From: Cyanophora paradoxa CCMP329
Taxonomy: Eukaryota; Plantae; Glaucophyta
DNA length: 64,000 bases
Direction of reading: 5' to 3'
Assembly: GCA_004431415.1 (NCBI GenBank)
Contig: QPMI01000036.1
Span: forward strand, 434,001 to 498,000
In this document: piece by piece, positions 26,301-53,906 of the stretch
How the letters are laid out: each line of letters starts with the position of its first letter
How positions within the stretch are numbered: the stretch's first letter is position 1
The notes under the pieces: model-generated
Databases searched by the model: none
What the model was told of the DNA's origin: nothing
What the model saw: the letters and a program-made list of their open reading frames with translations, nothing else
Made by a program: the position numbers and the translations under genes

Positions 26301-29016
26301 CGCGGCGGCGGCGCGGCGGGGGCGCCCGCAGCGCCCGCGGCGCCGCCGCCCTCCAACAGCAGCAACGTGCGTGGCTCCTTCGAGGAGAACGTCGATCCGC
26401 AGGCCCCGCCGCCGCGCCCCAAGCCGGGCGGCGCCGCCCCGGCCCCGGGTCCCTCTTCTGGGACCCTCGAGGAGGCCCTCAAGAAGGCCGCCAGCGCCTC
26501 CTGGTGGCAGCGCGAGGAAGCCTTCACCTCGCTGCAGGTCCGCCCTCTGCCATCCGGCCCAGCCGGCTCCGCCCCTCCCCGCCCTCCTCACCGCCCCTCA
26601 GGCCCTCTACGCCTCGCGGGCCTCGGCGGACGTCGTGCCCGCCTTCGAGCGCGTCCTCGCGCTGCACGTGCACGCCGTCCAGAACGAGGCCCACGGGCGC
26701 GTCCTCCTCGCCGCCCTCCGCTCCGCTGAGGGTCTCGCCCGCCACTTCCGCGCCTCCCTCGCCCCCGCCCTCGACCGCCTCCTGCCCCGCCTCTTCGCCC
26801 GCCTCGCGAGCCCGACGCCGGCGGCCCCCGCCCACGCCCTCCGCCCCGCCGCCGACGCCCTCCTCGCCCAGCTCCGCGAGGCGAGGGCCCCGCCTGCCCC
26901 GCCGCGCCCCGCCTTGCCCGCCTCTGACTCCGCCGCCCCGATCGCAGTCGTACGGGGTCGAGCAGCTCGTGGCGCCACTGCTTCGGCTCGCGGCGAGCAG
27001 CGCGGCGCCCCGCGCCCGCGCCGCCGCGCTTGACTTCGCGGCCGTGCTCCTCGGCGGCCCCGGGGAGCTGCCGCCCCGGACCCCCGCCTCCCCGCCGACC
27101 GTCCGCCCCGCCCGCCCCGCCCTGAGCCGAGCTGCGCTCTGCGTCCGGCCTGACGCGCCCGCTCGGCGACGCAGCGGCGGTGGCGTGGCTGGAGCGGCTG
27201 TCGGCGCTGGCGTCGGACCGGGCGGAGGAGGTGCGGCGCGGGGCCTGCGCCGCTCTCGTCGCCCTGCACGCCTCCGCCGCCCCGCGCTTCGTGGGCGCCG
27301 CCCTTGCCCTCCCGCCGAGCCCCGCGCCGCCCTCCGCAAGGTCCCCGCTCGCCTGCTCCCCCTCTCCCTCCGACTCCGCTGAACGACCCGGCCGCAGGTG
27401 CTGGCCCCCGTCCTCCCCAGCTCGACGACGAGATGAGCTGTACGGCCCGGGGCGCCCCGCCCCGCCCTGCGACGCCGCCCCGGGCCCGCCTCGCCCCGTG
27501 CGCCCGCGCCCGCACCCTCCCCTCTCTTCGCCCGGCGCACAGCGAGCCGCGGGCGCAGGGCGCCGGCGCGCCCCCCGAGGAGCGCGTGGGCGAGCAGGCG
27601 AGCCCGGACCTGTCGCCCGTGCAGCCCTCGCCGCCGCCGCCCCAGCACTTCTCCCCGGCGCCGCCTCCGCCTCCTCCCGCGGTGCGTCATTTTTGAAGAA
27701 GGAGCGCGGCGCGCGGCCCGCCGACGCCCGCGCCCGTCCAGGCTACTCGCCCCCCGCCACGGCCGCGGCGCGCGTTGGGTCCGCCACGGCCGCCGAGCTG
27801 GTGGCGGCCGTCCTGACCCCGCCCCGCGAGCCCGACTCGCCGCTGTACCCCTCCCCCGGCCCCGCCTCCGCCGGCCGCGGCAGCGCGAGCTCCCGCAAGC
27901 GCGCCATGTACGACCTCCTCCGGGTACCCCCCTTCCCTTCTTCCCCCCCCCCTCCCCCGCGCCGGCGCTCAGCGCTCGCAGCTGGTGGAGCTCTGCGAGG
28001 GGGGCGCCGAGGAGGGGGCCTGGCGGTGCCAGGTGCGTGGGACGTCGTCTCAAAGACTTGCCCCACTACTTTAGAGACAACTTTAGAACCTTCGAGTCAG
28101 GCTCTTCGCCTTCGGTCCGGGCTCTCTGACCCCCCCGCTTCGTTCGCAGGTGGAGGGCGTCCTCGCGGCCGTCGCGGCGGCGCTGGGCTCGCACGACGGG
28201 GACCTCCGCCAGCTGGGCGCCTCCGTCCTCTCCCGCGTCCTCGCCGCCCTCGACGACCCCGCCCTCGCCCCGCTCGCCCCCCGCTTCATCGCCGCCCTCC
28301 TCGACGTGCGCCCCCTCCCTGTGCCCCTTTCTTCTCATAGAACGCATTCTCTCATAAAAGACTGAAGGCCCCCCCTCTCAAAAGTCCTTTCTTAAAGACT
28401 GGAAGTCTCAAGCTTCATAGAATTATTTACGTAGAGCTCTCTGCCTTCTGCGCCTTTGGCTTAGCCTTCTGCTTGCTTGGACGCCGCCGCCGCCCGCCCG
28501 CCCGCCTGACCCCCGGGCCCCGCAGGCGTACGCGGGGGCGGCGGGGGCGGGGGACCGGGACGCCGTGGCGGCGCTGGACGGCGGCGTCGCCCTCGTCCTG
28601 CCCCGCCTCCGCCTCCGCAGCTGCGCCGAGGCCCTCGCCGCCGCCCTCGGGACGAGCGCGCCGCCGCCGCCGGCGAGGCGGCGCACGGCGCCCTGCGGCA
28701 GGAGCACGCCGCGCGCCTCCTCGCGCGGGTCGTGGCGAGGGAGGCCGAGGCCGGCGCCGCGGCGGCCTCCCGCGTCGAGCCGTTCGTGGGGCTCCTGATG
28801 GGCGCCCTCGTGCGGGCCTTCGGGAGCGCGGCGGCGGACGTGCGCAAGGCGACCGTCTTCGCCCTCGTCGAGCTCTGGCTCGCCCTGGGGGACGACTTCA
28901 CGCAGGAGCTGACGGCGCACCTCACCAACGCCCAGCTCAAGCTCGTCACCATCTACTGGACCCGCGCCTGCAAGGCCCGCGGCCTCCCCGTCCCGGAGGC
29001 CCCCGCGCCATCTTGA
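23387..29016 (+). CDS. CLASP: CLIP-associated protein (TOG/HEAT repeats)
   Basis: GDAKEAVR, DWALRLAALRRLEG, GDLRSAVVKEAC and the CLASP C-terminus AFGSAAADVRKATVFALVELWLALG...LTNAQLKLVTIY. Several single-base indels in G/C runs. Confidence 0.88.
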
Positions 29017-31939
29017 GCCTGATGTGCACCTGCGGCCATGGACCTAGTGCTGAAAACTGTGCTAAAAACTGGGATACGAAAAAGAGGGGTCCAGGAAGCA
29101 GCTTGGGGGCTCTCACCAGCGTGGGATCATCGGATCCTCTGAGAATCCTCGAGCTCGGAGCGTCGGGAAAGCCTCTAGATCTGGCCCGGGGGGCCTGCAG
29201 CTGATCATCGGATCATGATTATGCATATACATGGATCGATATCAGGTGCACAGTGCCGGTACTGCCAGGCTACGATATTCGATGATTTGAGAAATGCTTG
29301 AAGGGGCCCCCAGGCCCGGGGGGGGGAGGGGCCCGGGGGGGGGGGGGGGGGGGGGGGGGGGGATGAGAATAGAATTCTTTGGGGCTAGCACTTGAATCTC
29401 AGAGTCTAACTTTCAAATTCAGTATATACACGTGACTTTCACTGAGTCAAGCCTTCACTGAGTCAAGCCTCAACAAGCGAGTCCCTGCGGAGCAGGAGTG
29501 GCCTTGGGTCTTTGGGCTTCAAGGCGTGAGGGTGGCAGCTCTTTGTTTTTAAATTGGGGCCCGCAACCGCGCGCGGTTACGGGGGAGGGGGGAGGAGAAA
29601 CAGGGGGTCCACTCGGCAAGGGTACCCACTCAAGTGAGAGGGTACAGAATTGTGCTGCAAGGGTACAGATATCAATGCGGGGCCCAATCGGCCGCAGTTG
29701 TACCGAGTACAGGCCCCGAGAGGCCCATTGGTCGTTTCAGCCGAATGAAAACGACTTTCGGGCAAGTTTCGAATTTCGGCGCTCTCGCTTGCAATTGTAC
29801 ATCGGTCCTCTCTGTAGGCGCCCTTGTCCTGAGGGGGGTTATAGTAGCTCTGCTCTGCTTCGGCTCTCTAGGCAGGTGTAGGCAGTGTTTCTAGGCAGGT
29901 ATAGGCCCCTTTCTCCAGTACAATAGCTCCACCCGGTCCGATGTCCGAAAGGCTTGTTCCCGTAGGCTCATATGCATCTCTCGACTTGACACAGATGGAC
30001 ACTGCAGTCATATCCCTAGCCATTTGTCTCGGTGTGTGCAAATTCATTTGTAGTCGAATTTCGGCGCTTTTTTAAAACTTTGGAGGTGGTTAATAATTAT
30101 CTATGAATCATTCGAATGTAATTCGCAGTGATAAGGCTCTGTCTAATTTGTTTATTTTGTTTATTTTGATAATCTTTAAACTAACGCATCAAGTATATTC
30201 AAAACCCACCTCGTGGCACACAACGACCAGTGATGTTATCATGATAATGATGTCCTATCATGATAATGATATGATGCATGATATCATCATGATACGGACC
30301 CCCCTGTCATCATGGCTATCATGATGATGATAGACCCCCCCTAGACCCCCCCAAACCGCGAGTTTCTCATGCTCCAAACACCTCAGCAGAGTTCAATAAG
30401 TAATCGAGAGAGCGAGTAACATGATCTTTAGCAGAAAGCGCACCGAAATAGCGATGTTCTTGCCATCACAGCGCCTCCACCGGTACCCCCATCCGGCCCA
30501 TGGCCATCACAGCGCTAGCGCCAGATGTAGAGAATGTGTCTGAATAGGATTATAGTGCAGCTCTATGCTTCCGAAGTTCTTCTGTCGATTTTCGTGTCAA
30601 AACGACCATCTTTGCCGCAACTTTCACTGTTTCACAGCGCCGAGAACTTTGTATGGTGATAATGATATGATATGATATGATGATATGATGATATGATATG
30701 GTAGATGGCATCCTTGGACGGTTGACGATGCTCCGGCACCGCCCTGTAGCCCGACGAAGGCGCGGTCTCTGCTGACGAGGCGGAGCGGGTCAAGGGCCGC
30801 GGGCGGCGCGGGCGGGCGTTCTTAACGAGGGACCACTCTTTTTAGACCCTCACTAGTTGTTCCAGACGCTGCTGGCTCGAAAAAGGGTTCACGGGGCGGC
30901 CCGGGACGGGAACCGACCCCGAGTGGCCCGAAATCGCCCGGCCAGGCGCTCAAAGTGCTGGGGTGGGCTCTCCGATACTACTACTGCGAGCACAGCGCCC
31001 CCGGCGCTCACGCCGGCTTCCGGCCGCGGCTGGTCAACAAAGATTTGGGGTACACCGCGCTTCGTTCTCCAAGTCGCGGATTTCTGAGGGGCTTGGCGTG
31101 CAGTGAATGTGATTTGCGCTTTCTATTTTTTTCCGGGAAAATGCTTTTCTGTGCTTTTCGACGTGCTGTTACTGTCCATTAGGGGCCTCTCATAGGAACA
31201 CGGGCCGGACCATCGTGCTCCCCAGGGTCTAAAATGGGGTTGTAGGTGTCTTCAAATATACGAATTTCGCTTTCTAAAATTTTGTGACAAGTGACCAACA
31301 GACCTAATTATAAGGGCCTCTCCTTTCCCCAAGGCCGATTGCAAGCCTCAAGTTAACGTTAATTGCAAGGGGGGGTCAGCTGCTCAAACCCCCTTTGCTA
31401 CCCGGCCGGGCCCGTCGGATTGCAACTGTCGAGTCTGTCCGCGGCCGGATCCTTTTGTCCAAGTCGGCTAGTTCGCAACATGGACTTTTTCCCGTCGTCG
31501 AAACTTTGAAATGTTTTTGAAGTACCCGCGGCCGGCCAAGGCCCAATGGCCAAGGCGGCCCCGGCCGGCGGCCGGCGCCGCAGCGCAGCTCCTCAGGGCC
31601 TAGCCGCGCATTCTCAGTTCGTGGCATGCAATCGAGCCTGCGCGCGCGGCGGCAAACCGGCGAGCTCGAGGCTTATAGCTAGCGCTAGCTAGCGGCGAGC
31701 AGGCGAGTGGCGAGCGAGCGGCCGCGGGCGGCCGCCGGGCCGCTCCCGCCTCCCGCGTCCCGACCCGCCTCCCGCAGCTCCTAGGCCTGCGCTGTCGCGA
31801 AGGCCGCGCCATCACGGATCACGGAACCGCGCTGCTGCGGATCACGGGGCGGTGCGAAGCGCGCGCGGCGTGCGGCGGGGCTCTCCGGGCGCGGCAGAGA
31901 CGAGACAGACAGCGGCGCAGCTGCTTCGGGCGGCTGCGC

Positions 31940-32370
31940 GGGTCGCTGGGCGAGGCGGAGGCGGGGCGGGCCGGGCAGCGGCGCGCGGCGCTCGCCGGAA
32001 GGGGCGGAGGCGCGCGCGGCGGGCGGCTGCGCGGCTCGGCGGGCGGAGCGGAGGCGCGGCGGGCAGCTGCGCAGCTCGGCGGGCAGGGCGGATCCGGAGG
32101 CGCAGCGGGCGGCGGCGCGGCTTGCTGGGCGGGGCGGAGGCGCGGCGCGCGGCGGCGCGGCTCGCCGGATCGTCGGACGGGGCGGAGGCGCGGCGGGCGG
32201 TGGCGCGGCTCGTCGGGCGGTGGCGCGCCTCGCCGGGCAGGCTGGGGGCGCAGCGGGCGGCGGCGCAGCTCGCCAGGCGAGGCGGGAGGCGCGGCGGGCG
32301 GCGGCGGCCTCCGAGGGCCTCGCGGGGCGAAGGCTCGGCGGGCGGCGGCGCGGCTCGCGGGGCGGAGGCA
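31940..32370. repeat. Degenerate GC-rich minisatellite
   Basis: Recurrent ggcggaggcgcggcg(c/g)gcggnggcgcggctcg units at about 32005, 32131, 32179 and 32340. Confidence 0.6.
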
Positions 32371-32786
32371 CTAGCGCCGGAGGTGCGAGCTGTTCGAAGT
32401 CGAGTCTAGATCCCGCGGCCCATGGCCAGGCCTACGCATAGCGAGCGCTAGTTGCAGGACGAACAGATAGCTTTAAATGGACACTGTTCAATTAGACCCC
32501 ACCTTGTCGAAGACCTAGTAGTACTAGTACAAGTGCGCATGTAGTCTAGTATTACGTAGGGGCAGGGAAGGCGATGTGTTTACATGTACGTATACATGCT
32601 TGAGCTCATATGCATGACAGCCGCGGCCCCGGCGATCAATTGCAAGAGGCCTCCGTTTCCACCGGCACCCGCCCCCGCAGCACTCACAGTACTGCAAAAT
32701 GGGCAACTTTGGCAAATTTTAAGCCCCATTGATGTAACAGGATTGAAGCCGGCCTGTAGTTGGGAGAGAATTCCAGAACACTATCG

Positions 32787-34790
32787 CTACGAATCACTAC
32801 TGCTGTCGCTGTCGACGTCATTGTCAATGTCATCATAGGAATTATCACTTCCGCTATCAGTGCTCAACTCGCAGTCCCGAGCCCAGTGGCCAAGCTCCCC
32901 GCATCGGAAGCACTGCCCGCCACTGCTGCTGCTCTGAGGCCACTGCTGCAACCGGCTCCTTTTCGACTTCGAATTAACGATCGTGCCACCGCCACTGCGG
33001 CGGCGGCTGTGGCAGTGTACAAACTGAGCTGTGGCCGACTCTTTCCCATCAATCTGCATTCCATTTGCATCGGGCATCGTGAACGACGACAGCTCAGCAA
33101 AAAACTATGCACCTGTCCTGCCACTGTCTGTGTTGGTGACGAGTGCAGTGTCCGTCGAGTGCTCTGCTCTCCTGCTGGGCGTGATGCAGTCCGGGGCGCC
33201 GAAGGGGAGAGCTGTTGGAGCCTGGGCTCGGGAAAGCTCTTCTCCTTGCACGCAGGCACACCCGCCGTGAAGCGCGGCTGCTCGCGCAGTCCAGCAGAGC
33301 TACTGGCCTGACGTGCAGCACAGCTGCTTGCGAAGTGTCCAACCTGCTGACAATAGTGGCACCTGCAAGGTGTTCTGTGACGTCGACTTCAAGGGCGGTG
33401 ACTAGAAAAGCTGCACCGGTTCAGGTCCGCAGTGGACAATGAGTTTCGAACTATGCGTTTGGCAGTAACCTGCGCGCGCGGGCGTTGAACGCAATGCAGC
33501 ATTCGAAGGGCGGCCACTTGCAGGCAAGCCTTGAAGGTACCAGACCTCGGGTGGCTCAGTGACGAGCTCAGGCTGGCACCACGGACCCCCCCGCACCTTC
33601 TGCCATCCGTGCTGCGCATACATGTATACATGTACATCTTCAAGCAGGAGAAGCGTCGCGATCGCCAGCACCTCGAGCATGAGAGCAATCGTCAGGTCCA
33701 TCTCGCGCCGCTCGGTCCCGACGCTGATGTCGACAACCCGAACGACGGCGTGCTGCCGGGTCCAGGCTGCGGCCTCCCCGCGTCTGTGCGCCTCAATGCG
33801 GGCACTCACGTCCCGCGAGAAGCCAACGTAGAAGCAGCCATCCTGTAGCTCCAGCACGTACACATGGCCCTGGCCTTCCGGCGGCCGCGGGGTGCGACGC
33901 TCAACGGGCAGCTGCGGTGCAGTGGACGTAGACGACGTGGAAACAAGCCTAGGGGCATCCTTGGCTCGCTGCAGCCCCACAGTCCCGGAAGGCGATAGAT
34001 GAGATGATGATGACTTCGGGGATGATAGTTGCGTCGGCGTTGGGGCTGCAGATGTTGCGGTAATGGTTCCCGGAGGTAGTCGAGAGCTGGTGGCGTTTGC
34101 GGTAGTGGTTCCCGGAGGTAGTCGAAAGCTGGCAGCGTCTGCGGCGTGGCACAGGGCTGCTTCGAAGTCTGGATCCGTCTCAAATCCGAATTCGTCAACG
34201 GATCCTCGCAGCGGTCGCGGGGCGCGACGCTCGACGGGCAGCTGCGGAGCAGTGGACGTAGACGACGTGGAAACAAGCCTAGGGGCATCCGTGGCTCGCC
34301 GCAGCCCCACAGTCCCGGAAGGCGATAGATGAGATGATGATGACTTCGGGGTTGATAGTTGCGTCGGCGTTGGGGCTGCACATGTTGCGGTAGTGGTTCC
34401 CGGAGGTAGTCGAGAGCTGGCAGCGTCTGCCGCGTGGCACAGGGCTGCTTCGAAGTCTGGATCCGTCTCAAATCCGAATTCGTCAACGGATCCTCGCAGC
34501 GGCCGCGGGGCGCGACGCTCAACGGGAAGCTGCGATGCAGTGGACGAAGACGACGTGGAAACAAGCCTAGGGGCATCCGTGGCTCGCTGCAGCCCCACAG
34601 TCCCGGAAGGCGATAGATGAGATGATGATGACTTCGGGGTTGATAGTTGCGTCGGCGTTGGGGCTGCACATGTTGCGGTAGTGGTTCCCGGAGGTAGTCG
34701 AGAGCTGGCAGCGTCTGCCGCGTGGCACAGGGCTGCTTCGAAGTCTGGATCCGTCTCAAATCCGAATTCGTCGACAGGCGAAGGAGGCAT
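32787..34790 (-). CDS. GIY-YIG endonuclease with two CCHC zinc knuckles, three 96-aa N-terminal repeats and an acidic tail (~584 aa)
   Basis: HVYVLELQDGCFYVGFSRDVSARIEAH...AAWT...EMDLTIALMLE|HGWQKVRGGPWC, then CHYCQQVGHFASSC and CFRCGELGHWARDC. GT-AG introns at 33612-33671, 33470-33545, 33363-33416 and 33054-33112 give a continuous frame. Confidence 0.85.
33880..34775 (-). repeat. Three tandem ~288-bp coding repeats
   Basis: Units start at 34775, 34487 and 34199 (period 288) and are near-identical; the third unit has a 42-nt internal duplication. Confidence 0.95.
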
Positions 34791-35386
34791 ACTATTATGA
34801 TGAGGCCTAGCCTAGTAGGGCTGCAGCCTGCAGCAGAGATTTAGACTCTGAGATGGGCAGACTGATGGGCAGCTGCAGGCGCGCGCGCATGCATATGAGC
34901 ATGCATATGCATGCGCATGCCGCAGTGGCGGCGTGTGTGCCGCAGTGCAGATTTTCGGTGCCAGGGTACGCATGCATATGAGGCCTCACGGCCTGTAGGA
35001 GAGTTGCGCATGCATATGCATATTCGAACGATCATCATGGCATGATCGGATCATGATCAGGCCCAACTTGTCAAGCTTGCCCCTGCATGCGCAGCGACCC
35101 TCGGGGTATGTGTGCATGCCGCATAATGACATATATAGATAGAGTCAGGAAAAAAACCGGATTGAAAGAAAGGTGCAACATGATGAGAGGCCAGAGGAGA
35201 GACGAGGCGATGATCATAATCATGGATAGAATTCAAAGCGGAGACAGGAGATGGGGCGGGGGAGATGGGGCGGGGGAGGAGGCGCTGGACGCAGGGGGCC
35301 AACCGGGATGAAAGAATGGGGAGGATCGGGCGTAGAAGGGAGAACGAAGGCGAGAGGGCCGGTGCGGGCGAGAGGCCAAGGCAGCC

Positions 35387-36342
35387 TCAGAGGGCGTCCG
35401 GGTCGTAGGCAAGCCCCACTGCGCGCCGCGTCTCAGGGAGGGCGGACCGGAGCTCCCAAGGCGGGCGGGCGGGCGGAGGGAAGAAGAAGAACGGGGCCAC
35501 AGCACCGTTCGTGAGGAAGTCGAGGCGGTCGCGCCGCATGCAGGCGAGCCAGACGTGCATGGGCACCATCACCTCGTGGCGGGGGTAGGGTCAGACTTGA
35601 CGGCAAGGCAGTCCGGCAGGCGGGCCGGCGGGGCGCTGCCTGGCCTAGCCTGGCCACGCCTAGCCGAGCCCAGGCTAGGCTCCACCGCTCTCCACGCCCA
35701 AGCGCTCAGGCTATCTATAAATCTATCTATCCGTCCATCCGTCCGCCTTACTCACCTTGTGGCGGGCCTCCTCGGGCCGCTCCTGCGCCTTCTTCGCCTC
35801 CACCACGCGCTGCGCCGCCCGCACCAGCTCCGCCACGAACAGCTTCCCCGCTGCCGAGCAGACGGAGATCTTGAGACACGGGCGGCGGGCAGGGCGGGGC
35901 GGGGCCGAGCAGCATAGATAGACAGCGGACCGCGGGCGAGTAGCTCGCAGGCCCTGTCGTGCGCCCGGGGCTCCTGCCCCTTCTCCTCGTCCTCCTCGAG
36001 GGCCGCGTCGGGCGCCACCTGCGCCACCGCCGCCGCCACCGACGCCCGCTCCGCGTCCGACACAGCGGCCCCGGCCCGCCCAGGATCAGAGGTCGGGCGG
36101 CCGGGCGGGCGGCGGGCGGCTGCGCACCCGTGAGCGTGAGCTTCCGCGCCAGAGCGCCGGTCTCCGTGGCCGGCTTGCTTTGGGCTGCGAGCCAAGGCTC
36201 GCCCAGGGTAAGAACGAAAGGGCGGGGGGGCGGACGCGCCTGGGGAGGCCCACTGGGCGCGGGCGGCGGGAAAGGCGAGGTGCGAGCAGAGGCCGTGCAC
36301 GCGCTGCCGCACGCCGCACGAGCGCTGCAGCACCTCGAACGC
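35387..36342 (-). pseudogene. Duplicated 3' fragment of YEATS2
   Basis: 35099-36342 parallels 40065-41269, including introns, [19 protein letters not shown] and [19 protein letters not shown]. Confidence 0.9.
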
Positions 36343-37500
36343 AGTGTTAGTTCTGGCGCCCGCTTACTCGTGGGCAGGCAGCCGCTCCGATAACTTGTTG
36401 ATCGCGCTGGCGAGTTGCTGATTGAAGCGCACACATGGCGCCAGTCAGTGACGACGAGAAGAGAAAACGCTTGCACTCACCTCTAGAGCCGCCACCAGCC
36501 GCTACGCACCAGACCACATGCACGTTCGCAACGGCGTTAAGAAAGCACATCCAACCTTTGAGAGCAGAAACACGCACTGCATTTTTGAGGTCTTGTTTCT
36601 GCGGCATGAAGAAAACGCACAGGAAAGGTGAGCGCGCAAGCGCGAGGTTGAGGACCGATTGTGCAAGCGCAGGTTTGAGGATAGATTGTGCAAGTGCGGC
36701 TTTGGTCGGGGGCTGGTCACCTTCCGCTCCGCTCCGAGAAACAGGATTAAGGCCCTCCCAAATGCCTGCGCTCAAGCGCGCGGGCTCGAAGACAAACGTT
36801 GAATTGACGGCAATATTGATGCCATGAAGCAACTCTGTGCTGTTCACGAGTGACTGCCCAGCCGGTTACGCGGCGATTTGGCCAAAAGCAACGCGCAGCA
36901 AGGGCGCGAACCTCAAGCTGCGGCTGCGGGGGACTGATAGTCATCGCTTGAGCTGACTCGTCGTGCCGATCCTAGCTCTGTTTGAGCGAACAAGACCCGA
37001 GATGGGGCGGGCGCACGCGCGCCGGCAGCGTGAACACCATTTAGAGCGTGTGCAGAAAATTCAGTCGACTCGGCGATGAGCGGACTCGGCGATGAGCGGC
37101 TCGCGTCCCGGACTCGTGCGCGGATGTGTGTATCCCACTCAGGACCCACTGCAGGCCAGGGGTATAGTCATCAAGGAGCCACACAGATTACGCTGCGCCT
37201 GCGCAGCTTCAGCTGGCCTCAAACGCGTTGTGCAGATGGCTCTAGCTCTCGTGCTAGCTCTCGTGCATCTGCGCGCAGCACGCTAAGGTTCTAAGGGCTC
37301 GCGATCCGTCGTACGTGCGCGTGCGCGCGCGTGCCCGTGTGCGCAGCTCAGCGGTCGCAGCTGGCCACGTTTCGATCCGCGTGGCTCTGCTCCAGATCGG
37401 ATTCGAAAATCAGACCAGATCTAGATCTGAAGGAGACGCTTTTCCTCCAGTCCGACGCGCTCAGCGCGCGTTGCAACGGCGTTGCGGTCGCAGCGGCTCT
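36343..37500. other. Foreign junction segment, probably a captured intron-containing gene 5' fragment
   Basis: Unrelated to the flanking genes; minus-strand donors GTGAGT and GTAAGC, branch site CTAAC, possible exons KQDLKNA/RLVAALE/QLASAINKLSERLPAH; short tandem repeats at ~36636-36698 and 37067-37099. Confidence 0.4.
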
Positions 37501-39428
37501 CGCCCGCGCCGCCGCGCTGAACTTTGCGGCCGTGCTCCTCCCGCGGCCCCGGAGAGCTGCCGCCCCCGGACCCCCGCCTCCCCGCTGACCGTTCGCCCGG
37601 CCCCGCCCTGAGCCGAGCTGCGCCCTGCGTCCGGCCTGACGCGCTCGTCGGTGCCGCAGCGGCGGTGGCGTGGCTGGCCATGGAGCGGCTGGAGGCGCTG
37701 GCTTCGGACCGGGCGGAGGAGGTGCGGCGCGGGGCCTGCGCCGCCCTCGTCGCCCTGCACGCCTCCGCCGCCCCGCGCTTCGTGGGCGCCGCCCTCGCCC
37801 TCCCCGCCGAGCCCCGCGCCGCCCTCCGCAAGGTCCCCGCCCGCCCGCACCATCCTCTCCCTCCGACTCCGCCGAACGACCCGGCCGCAGGTGCTGGCCC
37901 CCGTCCTCCCCCAGCTCGACGACGAGATGGAGCTGTACGGCCCCGGGCGCCCCGCCCCGCCCCGCGACGCCGCCCCGGGCCCCGCCTCGCCCCCGTGCGC
38001 GCCCGCCCCCTCCCCTCTCTTCGCTTGGCGCATGGCGAGCCGCGGGTGCAGGGCGCCGGCGCGCCCGCGAGGAGCGCGTGGGGAGAGCAGGCGAGCCCGG
38101 ACCTGTCGCCCGTGCAGCCCTCGCCGCCGCCGCCCCAGCACTTCTCCCCGGCGCCGCCTCCGCCTCCTCCCGCGGTGCGTCATTCTTGATCAAGGCCCTC
38201 GGCGCGCGGCCCCGCCGACGCCCGCCCCGGCCAGGCTACTCGCCCCCGCCACGGCCGCGGCGCGCGCCGGGTCCGCCACGGCCGCCGAGCTGGTGGCGGC
38301 CGTCCTGACCCCGCCCCGCGAGCCCGACTCGCCGCTGTACCCCTCCCCCGGCCCCGCCTCCGCCGGCCGCGGCAGCGCGAGCTCCCGCAAGCGCGCCATG
38401 TACGACCTCCTCCGGGTACCCCCCTTCCCTTCTTCCACCCCCCTCCCCCGCGCCCGCGCTCAGCGCTCGCAGCTGGTGGAGCTCTGCGAGGGGGGCGCCG
38501 AGGAGGGGGCCTGGCGGTGCCAGGTGCGTGGGACCTCGTCTCACGGACTTCTTCCACTACTTTAGAGACAACTTTAGAACCTTAGAGCCAGGCCCTCTGA
38601 CACTCTGGTGACTTCGTTCGCAGGTGGAGGGCGTCCTCGCGGCCGTCGCGGCGGCGCTGGGCTCGCACGACGGGGACCTCCGCCAGCTGGGCGCCTCCGT
38701 CCTCTCCCGCGTCCTCGCCGCCCTCGACGACCCCGCCCTCGCCCCGCTCGCCCCCCGCTTCATCGCCGCCCTCCTCGACGTGCGCCCCCCCCCCCCCCCC
38801 CCCCTTCCCTGCTCTCAAGCTTCATAGAATTATTTCCTTACAGTTTTCTGCCTTCTGCGCCTTTGGCTTAGCCTTCTGCTTGCTTGGACGCCGCCGCCGC
38901 CCGCCCGCCCGCCCGCCTGATCTCCGGGCCCCGCAGGCGTACGCGGGGGCGGCGGGGGCGGGGGACCGGGACGCTGTGGCGGCGCTGGATGGCGGCGTCG
39001 CCCTCGTCCTGCCCCGCCTCCGCCTCCGCAGCTGCGCCGAGGCCCTCGCCGCCGCCCTCGGGGACGAGCGCGCCGCCGCCGCCGGCGAGGCGGCGCACGG
39101 CGCCCTGCGCCAGGAGCACGCCGCGCGGCTCCTCGCGCGGGTCGTGGCGAGGGAGGCCGAGGCCGGCGCGGCGGCGGCGGCGCGCGTCGAGCCCTTCGTG
39201 GGGCTCCTGATGGGCGCCCTCGTGCGGGCCTTCGGGAGCGCGGCGGCGGACGTGCGCAAGGCGACCGTCTTCGCCCTCGTCGAGCTCTGGCTCGCCCTGG
39301 GGGACGACTTCACGCAGGAGCTGACGGCGCACCTCACCAACGCCCAGCTCAAGCTCGTCACCATCTACTGGACCCGCGCCTGCAAGGCCCGCGGCCTCCC
39401 CGTCCCGGAGGCCCCCGCCCCCTCCTGA
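37501..39428 (+). pseudogene. Duplicated 3' fragment of CLASP
   Basis: Parallels 27013-29016 exon by exon; homology continues into the 3' flank to about 39680. Confidence 0.92.
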
Positions 39429-40359
39429 GCCGGCCGGCGGATGGTCGAGATGTGCTGGCCCGCGTCCATGGGCCTAGTGCTGAAGACTGTGCTAAGAAGT
39501 GGGGTAAGGAAAAGAGGGGCCCCGGGGTCCGGGAAGCAGCTTCGGGGCTCTCGCCCGCAGGAAATCCTCGGGGAATCCTCGAGCTCGGAGCGTCGGGGAA
39601 GCCTCCCGGCCTGCCGCTGATCATCATGATCGGATCATGATCATGATACATGGATCACGTGCACAGCCTGGCAGTACTATAGCTATTGCTACGGCCCGGC
39701 GGTATTTGAGATACTATCCGATGATCGGCCTTGCCAACTTGGCAAGTTGACTCACAGTGACAGTGAGGGAACTTTGACTCAGTGAAGCTTGAAGAAAGCC
39801 TTAAAAGGCGATTCGGTTGGCCGCGGCTGCTCAGCGGCTACTAGGCTAGCGCTAGCTATGAAGCCGCTGAGCAGGTCACCGGGTGCCACGCCGTGTGACT
39901 CAGTGACGGTGCACATGATCCGATGATCCGGACGGTGGCAGGACCGCCGGGCCGCCCCGCTCCCGGCCGGACTTGGGAGGCCCTGAGGCCCCACCCGGGC
40001 CGGGGAGCCGGGCCACTAGACCCTGATCAAGAGAACTAGACTCAGTCTGGCCATGGCAGTGGCACTCGGTGTATGTGTGCATGCCGCAAAATGAAATGTA
40101 TAGAAAGCGTTCAGAGGAAAACTGGAGTGAAAGAAAGGGACGAACATGATGAGAGGCCAGGGGAGAGAAGGGGCGATGATGATAATGAGGAGAAGCAGAG
40201 CCTCGGAGGCGGGAGATGGGCGGGGGGGGGGGGGGGGGGGGGGGGGGGGGCTGGACGTAGGGGGCCAACCAGGACAGAAACATGGGGGAGGAATGGGCGT
40301 GGAAGGGAGAACGGAGGCCAGAGGGCCGGGGCGGGCGAGAGGCCAAGGCAGCTGCAGCC

Positions 40360-43300
40360 TCAGAGGGCGTCCGGGTCGGACGCCAGCCCCACTACGCCCC
40401 GCGTCAGAGGGGTCCGAAGGGCCCGAGGCGGGCGGAGGGAAGAGGAAGAGGGGGGCCACCGCACCGTTCGTGAGGAAGTCGAGGCGGTCGCGCTGCATGC
40501 AGGCGAGCCAGACGTGCATGGGCACCATCACCTTGCGGCGGGGGGCGGAGTCAGACTTCACGGCAAGGCAGGCCGGCAGGCGGGCGGGGGGCAGCCTGGC
40601 CAAGCAAAGCCTAGCCGAGCCTAGCCTAGGCTGGGCTCCACCGCTATCTATAAATCTATCTATCCGTCCATCCGTCCGCCTTTCTCACCTTGTGGCGGGC
40701 CTCCTCGGGCCGCTCCTGCGCCTTCTTCGCCTCCACCACGCGCTGCGCCGCCCGCACCAGCTCCGCCACGAAGAGCTTCCCCGCTGCCGAGCAGACAGAG
40801 AGCTTGAGACGCGGGGGGCGAGCGGGGCCGAGCAACATAGATAGCGGACCGCGGGCGAGGAGATCACAGGCCCTGTCGTGCGCCCGGGGCTCCTGTCCCT
40901 CCTCCTCCCCGTCCTCCTCGAGGGTGGCGTCGGGCGCCACCTGCGCCACCGCCGCCGCCACCGACGCCCGCTCCGCGTCCGACACTGCGGCCCCGGCCCG
41001 CCCAGGATCAGAGCTCGGGCGTCCGGGCGGGCGGCGGGCGGCGGGCGGCGGCACCCGTGAGCGTGAGCTTCCGCGCCAGAGCGCCGGTCTCCGTGGCCGG
41101 CTTGCTTTGGGCTGCGAGCCAAGGCTCGCCCAGGGCAAGAAGGAAAGGGCGGGGGGGCGGACGCGCCTGGGGTGGCCCACTGGGCGCGGGCGGCGGGGAA
41201 GGCGAGGTGCGAGCAGAGGCCGTGCACGCGCTGCCGCACGCCGCACGAGCGCTGCAGCACCTCGAACGCCTCGCCGGCCTTCCGGTGCGGCGAGCCGCAG
41301 TACCTGCCGCCGCGGCGCCACTGTGAGCGACCTAGCGCGCCGCACAGACACGCGCTCGCTCGCTGGCTCCGGCCCTATCACGTGCACGCACTTGCAGAAG
41401 AGCGCGGGCTTTGGAATGAGCCGCGGCCGGTTCTCGCCCTGCCGCCCGCGGCTTCAGCGAGACTGCGACCGGCGGCGCGGGGCGGCGGGCGGCGCGCACC
41501 GGGGGCCGCCTGGGCGTGTTCGGGCCCTCCCCCTCGTCGTCCGACTCTGCGCGGGCGGGCGGTCAGCTTCCCGCGGTCGAATAAAAGAGCCGAGGGCAAG
41601 CAAGCTGAGCGCGCCGCGCATGAGGTCCCGCGGGGGCGGCATGTAGGGCGTCAGGCGGAGCTCCCGCAGACACGCGGCGACGCGCCCGGGGCCCATGCTC
41701 GTCTTGCCCGCCGAGGATAGCGCCCGCTGCAGGAGCTTCGCCCTCCGCCACTGCCGAGCCGGCCGCGCCGGGCGCCGCGTTCAGTGCGGCCGGCGGCGGC
41801 GCGAGCCACGGGGGTACGGGCGCGGGCGGGCGCGCCTCGGAGGCCTTTCTCCGCCCTATGTTCCAGGAGAAGAAGACGGGTACCGAGCCGGCGCAGGCGT
41901 ACGGTACCCCCGCACGCCTCGCCTCGTCTGCCGGCTGGCCGCGTCGGCCCGAGCAGAGCGGGGGTGCGGGGCGCGCGCGGGCGGACCCTCGGCGATGATG
42001 GGGAACTGCATGGCGTTCTGGTAGACGACCTTCTCGGCCTCGGGAAGCTGCGCGGGCTCGACGCGCGGCCGGGGGTACCCGGGCCGCGTCACCAGGCGCT
42101 CCCGCACGATCGAGATCTGCCGGCGGGACGGGATTTCGGGATGCGCGAAAGGCAATGGAGGAAGGCAGCGGCGTCCCCTCTAGCTAGCTAGCCAGATCGC
42201 CAGCCAGCCGTCCCCGACAGAGCGCGCGCGGCGCGCGCGCGCGCGCGCGCTGAGAGGCGGACGCTGCTGACCTGCTCGATCTCCACCTGCATCGTGCTCT
42301 GGCCCCCGAACTCCTCCTTCCCCGTGTACAGCTGGTCCAGCTGCGCGCGCAGGAGGCGCTCGGCCCGCCAGCTCGAGGGCGGCGGGCCCCGCGGCGTCGT
42401 TGCCCCGGCACCCACCTTCAGGTCGTGCTCGATGTCGACGGGCCGCTGCTTCGGGTTCTGCGAGGGCGCGGCGCGTATGCGCGCCCCCGGGTCAGACAGT
42501 CCAGGGGCTCAGACTGAGGGGGGGCGGGCGGGCGCCCGGACGGGCCGGCGGACCTTGAACGTGACGCGCACTTTCATGGGGAACTCGCCCCAGCCCCTGC
42601 GCACCACCTGGAAGGGCGGCGTCGTCACCTCCACCTGCTCGACCGCCGATCAGGCTCGAGCGTTCGTTCCCTCGTCCGCGCCGCGCCGCGCCGCGCCGCG
42701 CCGCGCGCGCCTCGTCGTTCGGGGCGAATGAGGCGTGGAGGAAGAAGCGGACGCTCTTGACGAAGACGGCGATGTCCGACTCCTGCATCGCCACCGAGAC
42801 CTTCCACTCGTGCGACAGGTCCGGGTCGTCCCGCGCCTCTGCGGGGCGGGGCGGGGCGGGGCGGGGGGCGGGTTCAGGCACGGCCCGGCCCTTTTGACGC
42901 CCCGATCGATGCTCGGAGGGCAGCGAAAGCTGAAGCTGAAGCACCGACGGGAATGAAGTGCGACGTGTTCTTCACGACGAGTGTGCGCCGCAGGATGGCG
43001 CGTATGATCGTTCCCGGGGCCGGGCTGCCGGGGGGCGGGCGCGGAGGCGGCGTGAGGGGCGGGCGGCCGGGGCGGGGGAGAATGCGGGGCGGCGCACAGG
43101 GTGCCGGTGCGCGGGCGCTTGCCGGCGAAGGCGGGGTGGGGCCCGGAGCCTTCGTCGGCCTTGCGCTTTAGTGGCTCGGGGGGCACCCGGCGAGGGCTCA
43201 TCGCGGGCGGGGCCCGCCGGATGATGCGCGCGGCAGCGACGTTCGACACCGGCGGCCTCCGGTCGCCCTGCGCGGCGGGCGGCGCGCGCGTGTGAGGAAC

Positions 43301-44052
43301 CCGTCGGTCGGTCGGCGCGACCGCGCGCTCGCTCGCTGGAGACCCCGAGCCGCACCGGCGCGACCGTGCAGGTGCGCGCGGCCTCCTCGGACGATGAGAA
43401 GACGAGGCGGTGGAGGATGCGGCAGTGGTTCACGAAGCCCAGTATGTTCTGGAACTTGTCGCGCTTGCACACGGGGCACACCAGCCTGTGCGCTTGGTCA
43501 GAAGGTAGCCCGGTAGCATGTGGCAGGCTCGCACCGCGGAAGCCTGGCCTCCGCGTGCGCCCTGCCCGACGAAACCGGCGAAAACGCATCCGCGCGACCC
43601 CGCTCCCGTGCCCGGCTGGCGCTTGGGCTGAGCGTAGACCGCATCCTTACGGGGGACTCGACGCCGGCGGCCCTGAACGTCCGAGGAGACCCCCTCGGCT
43701 CCTCGTCGCTGTCCGAAGAGGACGCATGCGAGTTCATGACCAGCGCAACCTGCGCCTCGGGCACCGACAGCTGCTGTATCACGCTGGCACGGAACTCCTC
43801 GGCTGGAGCCGCTCTTAGCTAGGGTAGCGCAGCGAGACAACAGTGGGGCGCACCGTCAAGCCAGCGGTTCGAGATGAGCCCAAGCAAGCGCTCCGCTCTT
43901 TCGATCCTCGCGTCGACCTCCTGGAGCTCATGCCGCTTGTGCTCGATCTCTTTGTCCATCTGCCGTGCGATAGCTGCTCGCACGGCCTCCACGTTCATCG
44001 GCCTCGCCGGCGCGGCGGGGGCAGGATCAGGTGCAGCCGGCGCCACCTCCAT
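40360..44052 (-). CDS. YEATS2: YEATS2-like protein (ATAC subunit) with an Ahc1-like C2H2 finger
   Basis: N-terminal coil [23 protein letters not shown]; zinc finger [23 protein letters not shown]; YEATS domain HEWKV...[22 protein letters not shown]; C-terminal LDFLTN. Confidence 0.85.
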
Positions 44053-44162
44053 CTCACACCTCCGTCAAGATGAGGAAAAGCAATTCGGGGTGGAAAGAAG
44101 GCCGCGCTGGGGCTGCTTTGCGAACTAAATCCCTTGAGCTGCTCCAATCCCAGAAGAAACCC

Positions 44163-45035
44163 TTCGAATTCAGCCTGCGCTTGCAGAGCCTCGCTCGCAG
44201 AGCCGTCGCCTGGTCGGCTGCTGCTGGTCGGCTGCGCCGAAAGGAGTGGGTACCCCCAGGGCCTCATTGAACAACGAATTCTAAAAAATTTGATCATATA
44301 TGCATGAAATGTCCTGAAAATACAAATCAACTCGAAAGATGCACATCAATTCAGTAAAGCAATTAATGCTTCGTCCTATATAGCTATAGGTTTGCGAACT
44401 GAATCTTTAAATTGAGCTGTTCGAAGCCCTAATTCGAAAGAAAACTTTCGGTCTTTGCTTGCAGACCTTGAGCCTTGAGCTCGCTTGCAGAGCCGTCGCC
44501 GGCGCCTGACTGCGCATGCTTCGGGTCCGACGGTCCGCAGCGCCGAAAGGAGCGGGTAAAAGCTTGCATTGCTCTCTCTGTCTAATCTGTCTCTGCCTCT
44601 CTGGTTCGTTCTTTGAGCTCCGATTGACTCTCTTGTTAGCTAATGCGCATTCTTCTTATAATTAGCTGCAGTACGTATATACGTATACGTATACGTGTTC
44701 GTTTCAGGCCGATTGCGAGGACCTTTTCCAAGCCTTCAAGGAAAATTTCATTCATTTTTATAATTACTGCGACAGCTCCTTTCAGTGAACAGTAAAATTA
44801 TAATTACAGCTTCTTACAGTTTACTAAACAGCTTCTGCCTTCTTAGAGTAAACTTATTGATCTATGAGGACACGCACGTGTACTTGCGCGGGAGAGCGGT
44901 CGCCTTATATAATTATATATAATATATAATTAGCCTTAAGCTTGCAGGGGAGCCAGGCCTAGGATGCGTACGCTAACACCAGAAGAAGCCTTCGAATTCG
45001 GCCTTCGAATTCGCTTGCAGAGCCTCGCTCGCAGA
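44163..45035. repeat. Locally dispersed repeat, three degenerate copies
   Basis: ttcgaattc...gcttgcagagcc(tcgctcgcaga/gtcgcc) at about 44163, 44450-44500 and 45004; cgccgaaaggag at ~44235 and ~44542. Confidence 0.7.
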
Positions 45036-46100
45036 TCTAGATCTAGAGGCTTAATTAATTATAAATTGAGTCATTTCAGTGTTGAACTCGAAATTCGACT
45101 TGGCAACGAAGTCCAATTGCACTGCCAAAACTCCGGCAATTGCAATGATCAACTTCATGATCATGATCGACGTTATTGATACTGAGGCCTAGCCTAGTAG
45201 GTATCGATCGATGTCTCAACTTTGGCAACGTTAACTGGCAAGCGACTATACTTACTAGTATAGTACTTCTATTTATGCATGTGCATGCACATGCACATGC
45301 AATAATTCAAATTACGGCCTGACAGTCTTGCGCTGCGCACGCAGCTGTGCATGTGTGCATTCCAATTGCCAGTTGTTCATGAAGCTCAAAAGACATAAAG
45401 ATTCATTGAAGCTTAAGAGCTGTAAAGATGGCCATGCATATGGCCAGTGGTGCATGGTTGCTTGCTCTTCTAATTGTCATTGACCTAGGATAGCAGGCCG
45501 CCTTGTCCGCGGCGCTTTGTTTGATTTCGATTGCGATTACTTTTTGAGGTTGGACAAGGTTGGAATTTGATTTCGATTGCGATTACGATTTGAGGCTGGA
45601 CGTCGACGGGAAATTAAAAATCGGACCGCGCGGGCACCTGAAGGCTGTAGCCAGTGTCCCGGGGAGGCGCATTGCTCCGGCACCTGTATGCTGTAGCCAG
45701 TGTCCCTCAGAAGGCAACGCAGGGCCCAGCTGGCTGGGCGTGAGCTCGGCGGGTTGGGCCTGCGGCGGCCGCAGTGTACATCCCACACTAGCAGCCCAAA
45801 CTTGCGACTTTAGTACGTGTCCACATGCCAGGATAGCAGCCAGAATAACCGACCATGCATCAGTGACTGAGATCAGCAAAAGTTTCCCAGGGAAATGGCA
45901 GGTCTGAGACCCGTGCCAGGCCAGCGTCAGCGGCAACGCCGAAAGCGCGATGTGCCGGCGGCGTGCAGCGATGCAAGAACTGTATGACGATGTTGTACAA
46001 TAAGATTATGCTGGACAGAAAAGTTTGGCGAGGACATAGTCCCGCGATGCGAGCGGACAGAGTCGCGTCATCCGCCTCGCGGGCGGGTGCGAACGGCGCT

Positions 46101-46414
46101 CTACTTCGGGGACTTCTTGTTCTGGTTCAGGATCAGATCTGCAACGAGAATCGCCGTCAGCGACCGGCCGTGCGAGGAATGAGGGCGTGACGCACCAACG
46201 AGGCCAGTGCCGCAGAAGCCGAGGAACGACACGGCGACGCTGCGGCGCGCAAAATGAGCACAGGGCACGCGGAGGAGGGGCGGAGCAGGCTGGCGTGCCC
46301 CGCGACGTAGAGCTTGCCGAACAGGGCGCCGCTCTTGTTGTGGGTGAACTCGGCGCTCTCCTGGAAGAACTTTTGGCCCGCTGCGACGGTGGTGGCGACC
46401 TTGAGGCCCGACAT
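46101..46414 (-). CDS. Cytochrome c oxidase subunit VIIa-like microprotein (65 aa)
   Basis: Two introns (the first GC-AG) give MSGLKVATTVAAGQKFFQESAEFTHNKSGALFGKLYVAGVAVSFLGFCGTGLVDLILNQNKKSPK: QKxFQ motif, one TM helix and a basic end. Confidence 0.7.
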
Positions 46415-46669
46415 CGTGGTTCAGCGAGCAGAGCGGCTTGCAAGCTAAGTGGTTTACCCCCCGCGGTCTTGTCCCCCCCAGTCTCGCCGCCTCCCGGCCT
46501 CCTGCAGCCTCCTTCAGCCTCGTGCGCCATCCAGCCGTGTAGCTAGACGTGCTACACGCGCGGGCATTCCTGCAGAGGGGACGAGCGTGAGTGCGTACGC
46601 TGTTGAAGGCGCCTCTAAGTGCGCGACGGTCGAGCGGCCGCTCCGTAGCATCGGCGCTGCGCCCTAGAG

Positions 46670-48471: not shown

Positions 48472-48644
48472 AGAGCTCTTTCACTTTGCGTCCAGTGTAC
48501 TTGCTGCTCTAGTAGTTGCCCTTCAAGACGATGAAGGCGATTCATACCAGTATATTCATTGCTCTTTGCACGGTTTGGAATTGAAATTGAGCGGAACCCT
48601 GACAAACAGAGGGATCCGCCCCTTCCCTATCGAAAGATGGGAAA

Positions 48645-51600: not shown

Positions 51601-52181
51601 CACCGAAGATGTTGGTCTCGCGCATCTGTCCCGGGTCAGCGAGATCCGCGAGGGCACTGCGGGCAAGGACGCACGTTCTGCAGGAGGCGCGCCAAGGCTG
51701 GCTCGTCGCTGTCGCTGTCTGCTGCTGTCTTGAAGAAATCGCTTACGAGGAACTCGCGGAATTTTTCCATGCACTCCTCCGTCTTGACTTGCGTGCCCCA
51801 GATCAGCCGGAACTCCTGCCCGAGACCGGATCCCTGTCGCCGGAGCGGATGAGAAAGGGGTCGCGGGCGCGTAGGACATCGCGGGCCCGAGAGCGCAGAC
51901 GCACGTTCTCGCCCGCGCCCCCAGCTGGCCTTGACCGACGCACGTCCCCGCGCGAGGGTCTGCACAAGCGCGCGCTTTAGAGCTATCAAGAATCCGTGCA
52001 TCTTTGAAAGCTCGCACGTGGAGGCCGCGCTCGACGGCTGCGGCGGAGTGAACGCGCCGTGGACATCCTGCGATATCCCCGGCGTTCGGCTCGGGGATCG
52101 AGCATCACCGGTCTCGCGACGAGTCTGCGATGGCAGCTCGCGGTCGTCGGTATTGTACGTGTTCATATTTGGGTTGTTCAT
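48645..52181 (-). CDS. MCM4: DNA replication licensing factor MCM4
   Basis: [60 protein letters not shown] and ATPRQLES. Confidence 0.96.
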
Positions 52182-52322
52182 CGCGCAGCCCCGCGCGAAC
52201 TGCGAGCGCGGATCAGCGGCGCGGCCTGCAGGGACCGAGCTGGCGACGCTCGCCTTCTACGGAACGTCTCTGCACGAGCCTCACTGGCGAGCCTCACTGC
52301 CCTGCCCTGCCTTGCTTGCGGC

Positions 52323-52334
52323 TTTGGCGCCAAA
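52323..52334. promoter_or_regulatory. Palindromic E2F/DP site TTTGGCGCCAAA
   Basis: Matches TTTSSCGC on both strands, midway between the divergent MCM4 and Borealin starts. Confidence 0.75.
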
Positions 52335-52520
52335 TTGGGGGGGGGGGGCAATTCGCAGAGGGGTACTGGTCGTGGACGCTTAACGGTAAAGAAACGCCGG
52401 CGCCCACAACTAGCGCACTCAGCGGTGCGCCGCATGAAGCGCTACTAAACTAGCTCGTCTGAGCACCCCTGACTCGCATCAACTGACAGGCTCGAACGAT
52501 TCGCTGGCAGATCGGCAGCT

Positions 52521-53886: not shown

Positions 53887-53906
53887 ATGCTGTATATATA
53901 TTGTGT

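What the first reader, a model, noticed from the sequence alone, without database searches (positions are those of the whole stretch)
32787..34790. Intact, intron-containing, giant-virus-type GIY-YIG/zinc-knuckle nuclease gene inside a lineage-specific insert
Seen: four GT-AG introns (60, 76, 54 and 59 nt) give an uninterrupted ~584-aa protein made of 3 repeats, a GIY-YIG domain with catalytic Y/Y/R/E positions (VYVL..FYVG..R..H..AWT..E), HGWQKVRGGPW, two CCHC knuckles and a D/S-rich tail. Removing the in-frame 60-nt intron restores the spacing M..(Y/H)G...VRGG. From memory of the families: GIY-YIG + VRGG + CCHC knuckles + acidic tail is an architecture common in NCLDV genomes, and differs from SLX1, ANKLE1, MSH1 or Penelope RT-EN. 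Inference: a virus-derived nuclease that acquired host-type introns and is either a selfish RT-free, transposase-free element or a domesticated or defence nuclease. It sits at the centre of a rearranged locus, so it may have made the break.
Basis: partly seen in the sequence, partly recalled or inferred. Interest (0 to 1): 0.85.

Follow-up and report, generated by a model that had tools for sequence, protein, structure and literature searches.

The report
Spliced virus-type nuclease gene in alga
An alga carries one spliced, four-intron copy of a gene for a predicted DNA-cutting enzyme from a large unstudied family best known in giant viruses; it was likely captured from a virus and kept as a host gene, and nothing here shows that it jumps or that it caused the neighbouring duplication.

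Summary
The gene model is right. All four introns are skipped in contigs of 4 of 4 RNA-type runs and retained in DNA contigs. The 584-aa product keeps Y311, Y321, G323, R331, H335 and E363, which are conserved across the family. A database model of this gene names the organism as Cyanophora paradoxa and lacks the catalytic half. The family (GIY-YIG + VRGG, often with CCHC knuckles) is common in giant viruses, but also occurs without knuckles in integrase-bearing Polinton-like contigs, phages, plasmids and bacterial mobile regions, and with knuckles in two unrelated eukaryotes. Trees cannot name the donor; they reject one clade of the three eukaryotic copies (p-AU 0.016). The gene lies at single-copy depth, with no terminal repeats or target duplication, inside a 5.8-kb spacer of multicopy repeats in an old (85-92%) tandem duplication. 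The proposed 'empty site' is a replacement, not a clean site. Best reading: a captured, domesticated viral nuclease, likely a nickase guided by its knuckles and most likely used against foreign DNA; activity and role are untested. The selfish-element and break-maker ideas are not supported.

The parts
33672..34790 (-). [quoted passage not shown]
   Evidence: start ATG inferred
33870..34775 (-). Three tandem in-frame repeats (96, 96 and 110 aa), Ser/Pro/Thr/Ala-rich, each starting with a short acidic motif; no family match
33672..33866 (-). GIY-YIG core with Y311, Y321, G323, R331, H335, W343, T344, E363, M371
33612..33671 (-). Intron 1, 60 nt, in frame, inside the nuclease domain
   Evidence: skipped in 4 of 4 runs
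33546..33611 (-). Exon 2: family motif H-G-x-x-x-V-R-G-G (res 374-395)
33470..33545 (-). Intron 2, 76 nt
33417..33469 (-). Exon 3, linker to knuckle 1
33363..33416 (-). Intron 3, 54 nt (5 letters fit on either side of the joint)
33113..33362 (-). Exon 4: CCHC knuckle 1 (res 414-427) and low-complexity linker
33054..33112 (-). Intron 4, 59 nt
32787..33053 (-). Exon 5 (coding part): CCHC knuckle 2 (res 544-557), Asp/Ser tail, stop
32630..32786 (-). Likely 3' untranslated region (RNA-type contigs end at 32630-32740)
   Evidence: contigs cannot show true ends
29240..31440 (.). Non-coding multicopy repeats that make up the left part of the spacer (depth about 5 to 230 times single copy)
   Evidence: no Rfam match
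27001..29237 (+). Copy 1 of the duplicated 3' part of a HEAT-repeat (CLASP-like, name recalled) gene; matches 37489-39656 at 88-92%
35086..36342 (-). Partial copy of the 3' part of the YEATS-domain gene; matches 40052-41269 at 85%
36343..37488 (.). Unique junction between the two copies; bridged by single DNA contigs at single-copy depth
39690..40050 (.). Spacer of copy 2 (the proposed empty site); no counterpart in copy 1

Best explanation
This is a single-copy, spliced nuclear gene of the glaucophyte alga Cyanophora paradoxa for a predicted GIY-YIG nuclease with two zinc knuckles, likely captured from a DNA virus of protists and kept as a host gene, most likely to cut foreign DNA. Shown: splicing, single-copy depth, conserved catalytic residues, family membership. 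Inferred: (1) the donor was a giant virus or a Polinton-like virus; (2) the introns were gained after capture, since the viral and bacterial relatives read as unbroken frames; (3) the knuckles would hold single-stranded or branched nucleic acid while the one active site nicks one strand, as established for GIY-YIG domains and CCHC knuckles separately; (4) the low-complexity N-terminal repeats were added in the host and would serve as a tether or docking arm; (5) the gene reached this spacer passively with host repeats, after or during an older tandem duplication that it did not need to cause.
For: Splicing in 4 of 4 RNA-type runs and unskipped DNA contigs. Depth 36.7 and 93.8 over the gene versus 33.7 and 102.3 over the unique junction. 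Database model named Cyanophora paradoxa matches res 343-446 exactly. Catalytic columns invariant or nearly so in alignments of viral, bacterial and window sequences. Knuckles in 127 of 172 viral-contig members, 0 of 17 prokaryote records not titled MAG and 9 of 22 MAG records. Best predicted-structure match a Yasminevirus CCHC-type protein, E 4.3e-8, 36% identity. High-scoring domain matches next to rve integrase or A32 ATPase genes; an Atlas cluster labelled Preplasmiviricota ranks second (phylum known for only 2 members). One clade of the Cyanophora, Galdieria and Chromosphaera copies is rejected, p-AU 0.016. Passages of 10.1101/2025.04.15.648976 and PMC12220804 report giant-virus endogenous elements and PLVs in C. 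paradoxa. 13 of 25 bacterial loci have a mobile or defence-type Pfam family among the neighbours scanned (no control).
Against: The donor is unresolved: no starred branch holds the query; grouping with Polinton-like rows (p 0.15), with the main knuckle group (p 0.28) and with Galdieria alone (p 0.10) are all not rejected. In the careful trees its weakly supported neighbours are an unnamed protein (P0181) and a set of bacterial rows, so a bacterial route is open. The closest sequence, P0181 (51% over 84 columns), has no name or organism. The knuckle lies 35 residues after VRGG against 29 in 390 of 417 relatives. The gene is expressed in ordinary cultures' runs, which fits a housekeeping role as well as defence. 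PADLOC gives nothing for the query and only two weak hits among 16 proteins. No activity has been measured for any member that I could find, and selection on the repeats is inconclusive (6 synonymous to 9 non-synonymous changes, P 0.27).
Confidence: 0.55

Rival explanations
1. Same captured gene, but it serves host DNA or RNA metabolism (Slx1-like clean-up of branched or single-stranded structures), not defence.
For: [quoted passage not shown] Expressed in 4 of 4 runs laid. Two close viral relatives sit beside a pyrimidine-dimer glycosylase gene (L162, L163).
Against: Patchy distribution over viruses, plasmids and bacterial mobile regions is more typical of conflict genes (inference). No RING finger. 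Fold comparisons with Slx1 are weak (Z 3.1-3.6).
Confidence: 0.22
2. An old eukaryotic or bacteria-derived gene, not a viral capture; viruses took the family from hosts or share it by separate routes.
For: Four host-type introns; eukaryotic members in Galdieria and Chromosphaera; Cyanophora + Galdieria not rejected (p 0.10); bacterial rows next to the query in careful trees (83/85).
Against: The three eukaryotic copies as one clade are rejected (p 0.016); Galdieria and Chromosphaera each pair, unstarred, with a different viral row; only 2 of 19 looked-up clusters had a named eukaryote; no isolate genome member has knuckles.
Confidence: 0.13
3. A selfish, homing-like element that inserted itself here and made the break behind the duplication.
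For: It lies in the expanded spacer of one of two tandem copies; GIY-YIG genes in PLVs are discussed as homing endonucleases (passages of PMC12220804); nearest solved fold is I-TevI (Z 5.9 and 5.3, middling).
Against: Single-copy depth; no terminal inverted repeats, and the one 6-nt direct match at the edges is at chance level; about 360 nt of the 'empty' spacer is missing from copy 1; duplicates are 85-92% alike, so the event is old; the rest of the spacer is ordinary multicopy repeat.
Confidence: 0.07

Closest known systems
Giant-virus 'GIY-YIG nuclease (with zinc finger domain)' / 'CCHC-type domain-containing' proteins (Yasminevirus A0A5K0U8Q4, Orpheovirus A0A2I2L4G4, Klosneuvirus A0A1V0SKB8, Fadolivirus A0A7D3R283)
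   Same: GIY-YIG core, W-T motif, M-x-x-(Y/H)-G-x-x-x-V-R-G-G motif, following CCHC knuckles, often acidic stretches
   Different: Four spliceosomal introns, a 300-aa triplicated N-terminal extension, longer spacing to knuckle 1 (35 against usually 29), single host gene outside any viral gene cluster
GIY-YIG genes of Polinton-like / Maverick-type elements (metagenome loci L244-L249, L251, L253, L259)
   Same: High domain scores (65-79 bits) and the shared T-I-A-L-M stretch before the family motif
   Different: They lack knuckles and lie beside integrase or packaging ATPase genes; none of these is in this window's insert
UPF0213 / bacterial Slx1-like stand-alone GIY-YIG proteins (PDB 1zg2, 1ywl)
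   Same: Closest solved sequences to the family profile over the N-terminal 55-65 positions; top Foldseek rows (E 0.014 and 0.062)
   Different: The match ends before the VRGG motif; no knuckles
Eukaryotic members already in databases: Galdieria yellowstonensis KAK4526196.1, Chromosphaera perkinsii EP01135 P000210
   Same: Same domain plus knuckles and acidic tail in a eukaryotic proteome
   Different: Not one clade with this gene; their introns and expression were not examined
Homing endonuclease I-TevI
   Same: Same fold, Z 5.9 / 5.3, rmsd about 3 A over 73-78 residues
   Different: 12-18% identity; knuckles instead of a long-site DNA-binding arm (I-TevI architecture recalled); no homing context

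Membership tests
GIY-YIG superfamily | Two Tyr motifs, Gly, Arg, His and metal-binding Glu in order | tested here: met
   Y311, Y321, G323, R331, H335, E363 align with invariant or near-invariant columns; Pfam above cut-off
GIY-YIG superfamily | GIY-YIG fold | tested here: met
   Model pLDDT 82 (with the 20 intron-coded residues in it); best matches are GIY-YIG structures, Z 5.9
GIY-YIG superfamily | Nuclease activity | not testable with these tools
   needs a bench assay
VRGG-type GIY-YIG family (giant-virus knuckle form) | W-T and M..(Y/H)G...VRGG motifs | tested here: met
VRGG-type GIY-YIG family (giant-virus knuckle form) | CCHC knuckle(s) after the motif | tested here: met
   two knuckles; spacing 35 against the usual 29
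VRGG-type GIY-YIG family (giant-virus knuckle form) | Nesting inside a giant-virus clade | tested here: inconclusive
   no starred branch; AU tests do not separate donors
Endogenous giant virus or Polinton-like element | Neighbouring viral genes (capsid, integrase, ATPase) and terminal inverted repeats | tested here: not met
   no such frames seen by eye in the spacer (these frames were not scanned against Pfam), flanks are host genes, no terminal repeats
Transposable or homing element | Several dispersed copies | tested here: not met
   single-copy depth in two DNA runs at 85% likeness; older, more diverged copies would be missed
Transposable or homing element | Target-site duplication and clean empty site | tested here: not met
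Eukaryotic SLX1 | C-terminal RING finger | tested here: not met
   only CCHC knuckles found in exons 4 and 5; feature from PMC1564403 passages
Penelope-like retroelement | Reverse transcriptase in the same element (recalled) | tested here: not met
   584-aa frame fully accounted for; no RT-length frame in the spacer
Known anti-phage defence systems (PADLOC) | Profile match | tested here: inconclusive
   no hit for the query; weak PDC-S14 hits for 2 of 16 proteins

The most novel reading that the evidence does not exclude
Unrelated eukaryotes have repeatedly domesticated the same virus-borne GIY-YIG/zinc-knuckle nuclease as an antiviral restriction enzyme; the Cyanophora gene, with four gained introns and a new triplicated docking arm, is the most fully naturalised case and would be the first handle on a very large family with no characterised member.
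Probability: 0.2. Interest if true: 0.8.

Novelty: new member of a known kind. Interest (0 to 1): 0.45.

Why it matters
The family is very large (1,936 clusters at E<=1e-30 with a profile that includes a knuckle) and I found no paper that characterises it. A spliced single-copy member in a culturable alga gives a direct way to test what it cuts and whether hosts use it against viruses. It also corrects a database model that omits the catalytic half. Viral genes in C. paradoxa are reported as mostly methylated (passages of 10.1101/2025.04.15.648976), so an expressed, intron-bearing one is a useful exception. Against high interest: gene capture from viruses by protists is well known, other eukaryotes hold the same family, and the mobile-element claim failed.

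Tried and rejected
No whole genome was held, so copy number rests on read-contig depth and no flank comparison across the genome was possible. A first protein search with the intron-containing piece found nothing; a direct viral scan gave one spurious locus. A two-row profile dropped the N-terminal half and matched only knuckles. NCBIfam and PHROGs gave only weak or unrelated rows. Rfam: 0 matches in 28500-41500. Atlas and Pfam gave nothing for the N-terminal repeat; this shows neither absence nor novelty. dN/dS among the repeats 0.63, not significant. Searches for the locus of P0181 in viral contigs found none. Run X22 (another organism) did not cover the gene at 85% likeness; this is uninformative. 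No listed holder is on record as RNA; the RNA nature of X15-X20 is inferred from the clean intron skips. The quick 96-row tree was poorly searched (a constrained tree scored 34 log units higher), so its grouping with Polinton-like rows (SH-aLRT 84 for a mixed set, 22 for the pure set) is not used as evidence. A constrained test with 17 bacterial rows was started and not finished. A 6-nt direct match at the spacer edges was rejected as chance (about one expected). Assembly artefact for the duplication was rejected because single contigs bridge the junction. No complex prediction was run. Supplements of the papers were not read and could list this gene among viral-origin genes.

Full report
Observation. 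The gene is on the minus strand, 34790..32787. Removing four GT-AG introns (33671-33612, 33545-33470, 33416-33363, 33112-33054) gives 584 aa without internal stops. The stretch 32700-34050 is held by 20 of 24 listed runs, all of one coded organism. Four runs guessed to be RNA were laid on 32450-34090: in 4 of 4 a single contig skips exactly these four stretches, with CT..AC ends on the plus strand. Two DNA-type runs carry 32497-33948 and 32461-33948 as single unskipped contigs with no differences. So the skips are splicing. Contigs from the RNA-type run X15 also cover the repeat region, fading in the 34580-34893 bin; the start codon itself is inferred.

Organism and annotation. The only hit of the exon-1 domain piece was a 124-aa EukProt protein, labelled Cyanophora paradoxa. 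Its residues 3-106 equal residues 343-446 of the spliced protein, and it then jumps to another frame at 33164. It supports introns 1-3 but lacks the two Tyr motifs, the Arg and the His, and its extra jumps are not seen in the RNA contigs. The finding therefore corrects an existing model. The window's other genes that I scanned are ordinary host genes (YEATS, Myb/BDP1-like, MCM, actin-like, separase, F-box, SHMT).

Protein family. A profile of 103 distinct domains scores the spliced protein 50.0 bits and the unspliced frame 41.9. Y311, Y321, G323, R331, H335, W343, T344, E363, M371 and the VRGG motif fall in invariant or near-invariant columns. Among distinct sequences, knuckles occur in 127 of 172 viral, 46 of 73 metagenome and 9 of 39 prokaryote rows; all nine are MAG records, none of the 17 records not titled MAG. 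These sets were chosen by motif or score, so the shares are not family-wide rates. A model of the domain (pLDDT 82, still holding the 20 intron-coded residues) matches 24 viral structures at E<=0.001: 17 named giant-virus proteins, one vibriophage protein and six unnamed. Among solved structures, UPF0213 proteins are closest by sequence and I-TevI by fold at middling Z.

Origin. By domain score the best match is P0181 (88 bits; four knuckles and an acidic stretch; unnamed, 5.6-kb contig). Next come knuckle-less marine contig proteins beside rve integrase or A32 ATPase genes, read as Polinton-like elements, then knuckle-bearing virus-like proteins. Of 19 relatives looked up, two clusters hold a named eukaryote: Galdieria yellowstonensis and Chromosphaera perkinsii. 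With 85 columns the trees are weak: the query has no starred group; it pairs with P0181 (89/76) next to five bacterial rows (83/85). AU tests reject one clade of the three eukaryotic copies (p 0.016) but not Cyanophora + Galdieria (0.10), + Polinton-like rows (0.15) or + the main knuckle group (0.28; that group was named after seeing a tree). The 50 rows were picked by hand from about 580 collected. I conclude that separate acquisitions are likely, that a viral donor is the best guess because the knuckle form is mostly viral and this alga is reported to hold both giant-virus and PLV insertions (passages of 10.1101/2025.04.15.648976; PMC12220804), and that 'giant-virus-type' describes the architecture, not a proven donor.

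Locus. Self-comparison shows a tandem duplication of (3' part of a HEAT-repeat gene + spacer + 3' part of the YEATS gene): 27001-29237 matches 37489-39656 at 88-92% and 35086-36342 matches 40052-41269 at 85%. The junction is bridged by single DNA contigs, so it is not an assembly artefact. Copy 1's spacer is about 5.8 kb, copy 2's about 0.4 kb, and about 360 nt of the latter has no counterpart in the former: a replacement whose direction cannot be told. The gene has the same depth as the unique junction (36.7 against 33.7; 93.8 against 102.3), while 29240-31440 is multicopy repeat. There are no terminal inverted repeats and no target duplication above chance. The gene's short introns are 49-63% G+C, like eight introns picked by eye from the window's low-G+C genes (33-56%) and unlike six short ones from the flanking genes (75-86%; two longer ones 58%); this hints that it gained its introns elsewhere and was moved here, but those host introns are unverified. 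The gene's own repeats are 97% alike, younger than the duplication.

Mechanism. From established knowledge (recalled), a GIY-YIG domain has one active site that nicks one strand with a Glu-bound metal, and CCHC knuckles bind single-stranded nucleic acid. The likely action is therefore knuckle-guided nicking of single-stranded or branched DNA. For the role I favour defence against foreign DNA over repair, weakly: 13 of 25 bacterial loci have a mobile or defence-type family among the 88 neighbour frames scanned (of 156 called, which include the nuclease frames; no control), and the family travels on viruses and plasmids; but PADLOC knows no such system and two viral relatives lie beside a repair glycosylase. 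Nothing here tests activity.

Literature. I read passages only, of 10.1101/2025.04.15.648976, PMC12220804, PMC12721341, PMC1564403 and PMC3671162; other papers were seen as search listings. None of the passages describes this gene or the VRGG/knuckle family as such; GIY-YIG genes of PLVs and virophages are noted with unknown or homing roles. Supplements were not read. Earlier notes of this scan report the same family in two other algal genomes and as mobile cargo in giant viruses; I did not check them.

Verdict. A real, well-supported gene and a correct reading of its anatomy; a new, strongly naturalised member of a known but unstudied family; probably a domesticated viral gene; not shown to be mobile or to have caused the rearrangement. 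Interest 0.45.

Noticed in passing
window 28645-28652: The last exon of the left (full-length) HEAT-repeat gene is one base shorter than its duplicate and changes frame; an RNA-type contig over 28526-29072 differs by one gap and no other letter, so this is probably an error in the window's assembly.
   Followed up: partly
window 29556-30183: A high-copy repeat (100-230 times single-copy depth in DNA) with very high depth in an RNA-type run; one contig joins it to a sequence that reads like an MCM coding end, so it may sit in 3' ends of other genes. No Rfam match.
   Followed up: partly
window 29507 / 31311: Both DNA runs hold a contig joining these points at single-copy depth (28 letters on the short side), hinting that 29508-31310 is nested inside another repeat.
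   Followed up: no
window 31927-32370: G+C-rich minisatellite of 20-nt subunits (about 88-nt period) just downstream of the gene; related sequence is abundant in the DNA runs.
   Followed up: no
window 36343-37488: Unique 1.1-kb filler at the duplication junction, without a recognised gene; origin unknown.
   Followed up: partly
window 1-44000 versus 44000-64000: Sharp change from about 70% to about 51% G+C between two regions that both hold ordinary host genes, with matching intron composition.
   Followed up: partly
window 6493-8361: Another frame with a weak CCHC knuckle match followed by long low-complexity sequence; no GIY-YIG domain there.
   Followed up: no
L244-L249, L251, L253, L259: A group of marine Polinton-like contigs with a conserved order integrase, small coiled protein, VRGG-type GIY-YIG; L248 has two copies.
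   Followed up: partly
L129, L154, L139: Knuckle-bearing members beside ordinary cellular genes in marine archaeal and alphaproteobacterial MAGs, so the knuckle form is not strictly viral.
   Followed up: partly
L133, L137, L142, L144, L147, L151, L158: Bacterial members with two tandem GIY-YIG-VRGG domains in one protein.
   Followed up: no
window 34710-34775 (and repeats): Each repeat opens with a short acidic, likely helical motif resembling docking motifs of DNA-repair proteins (resemblance recalled, no database match).
   Followed up: partly
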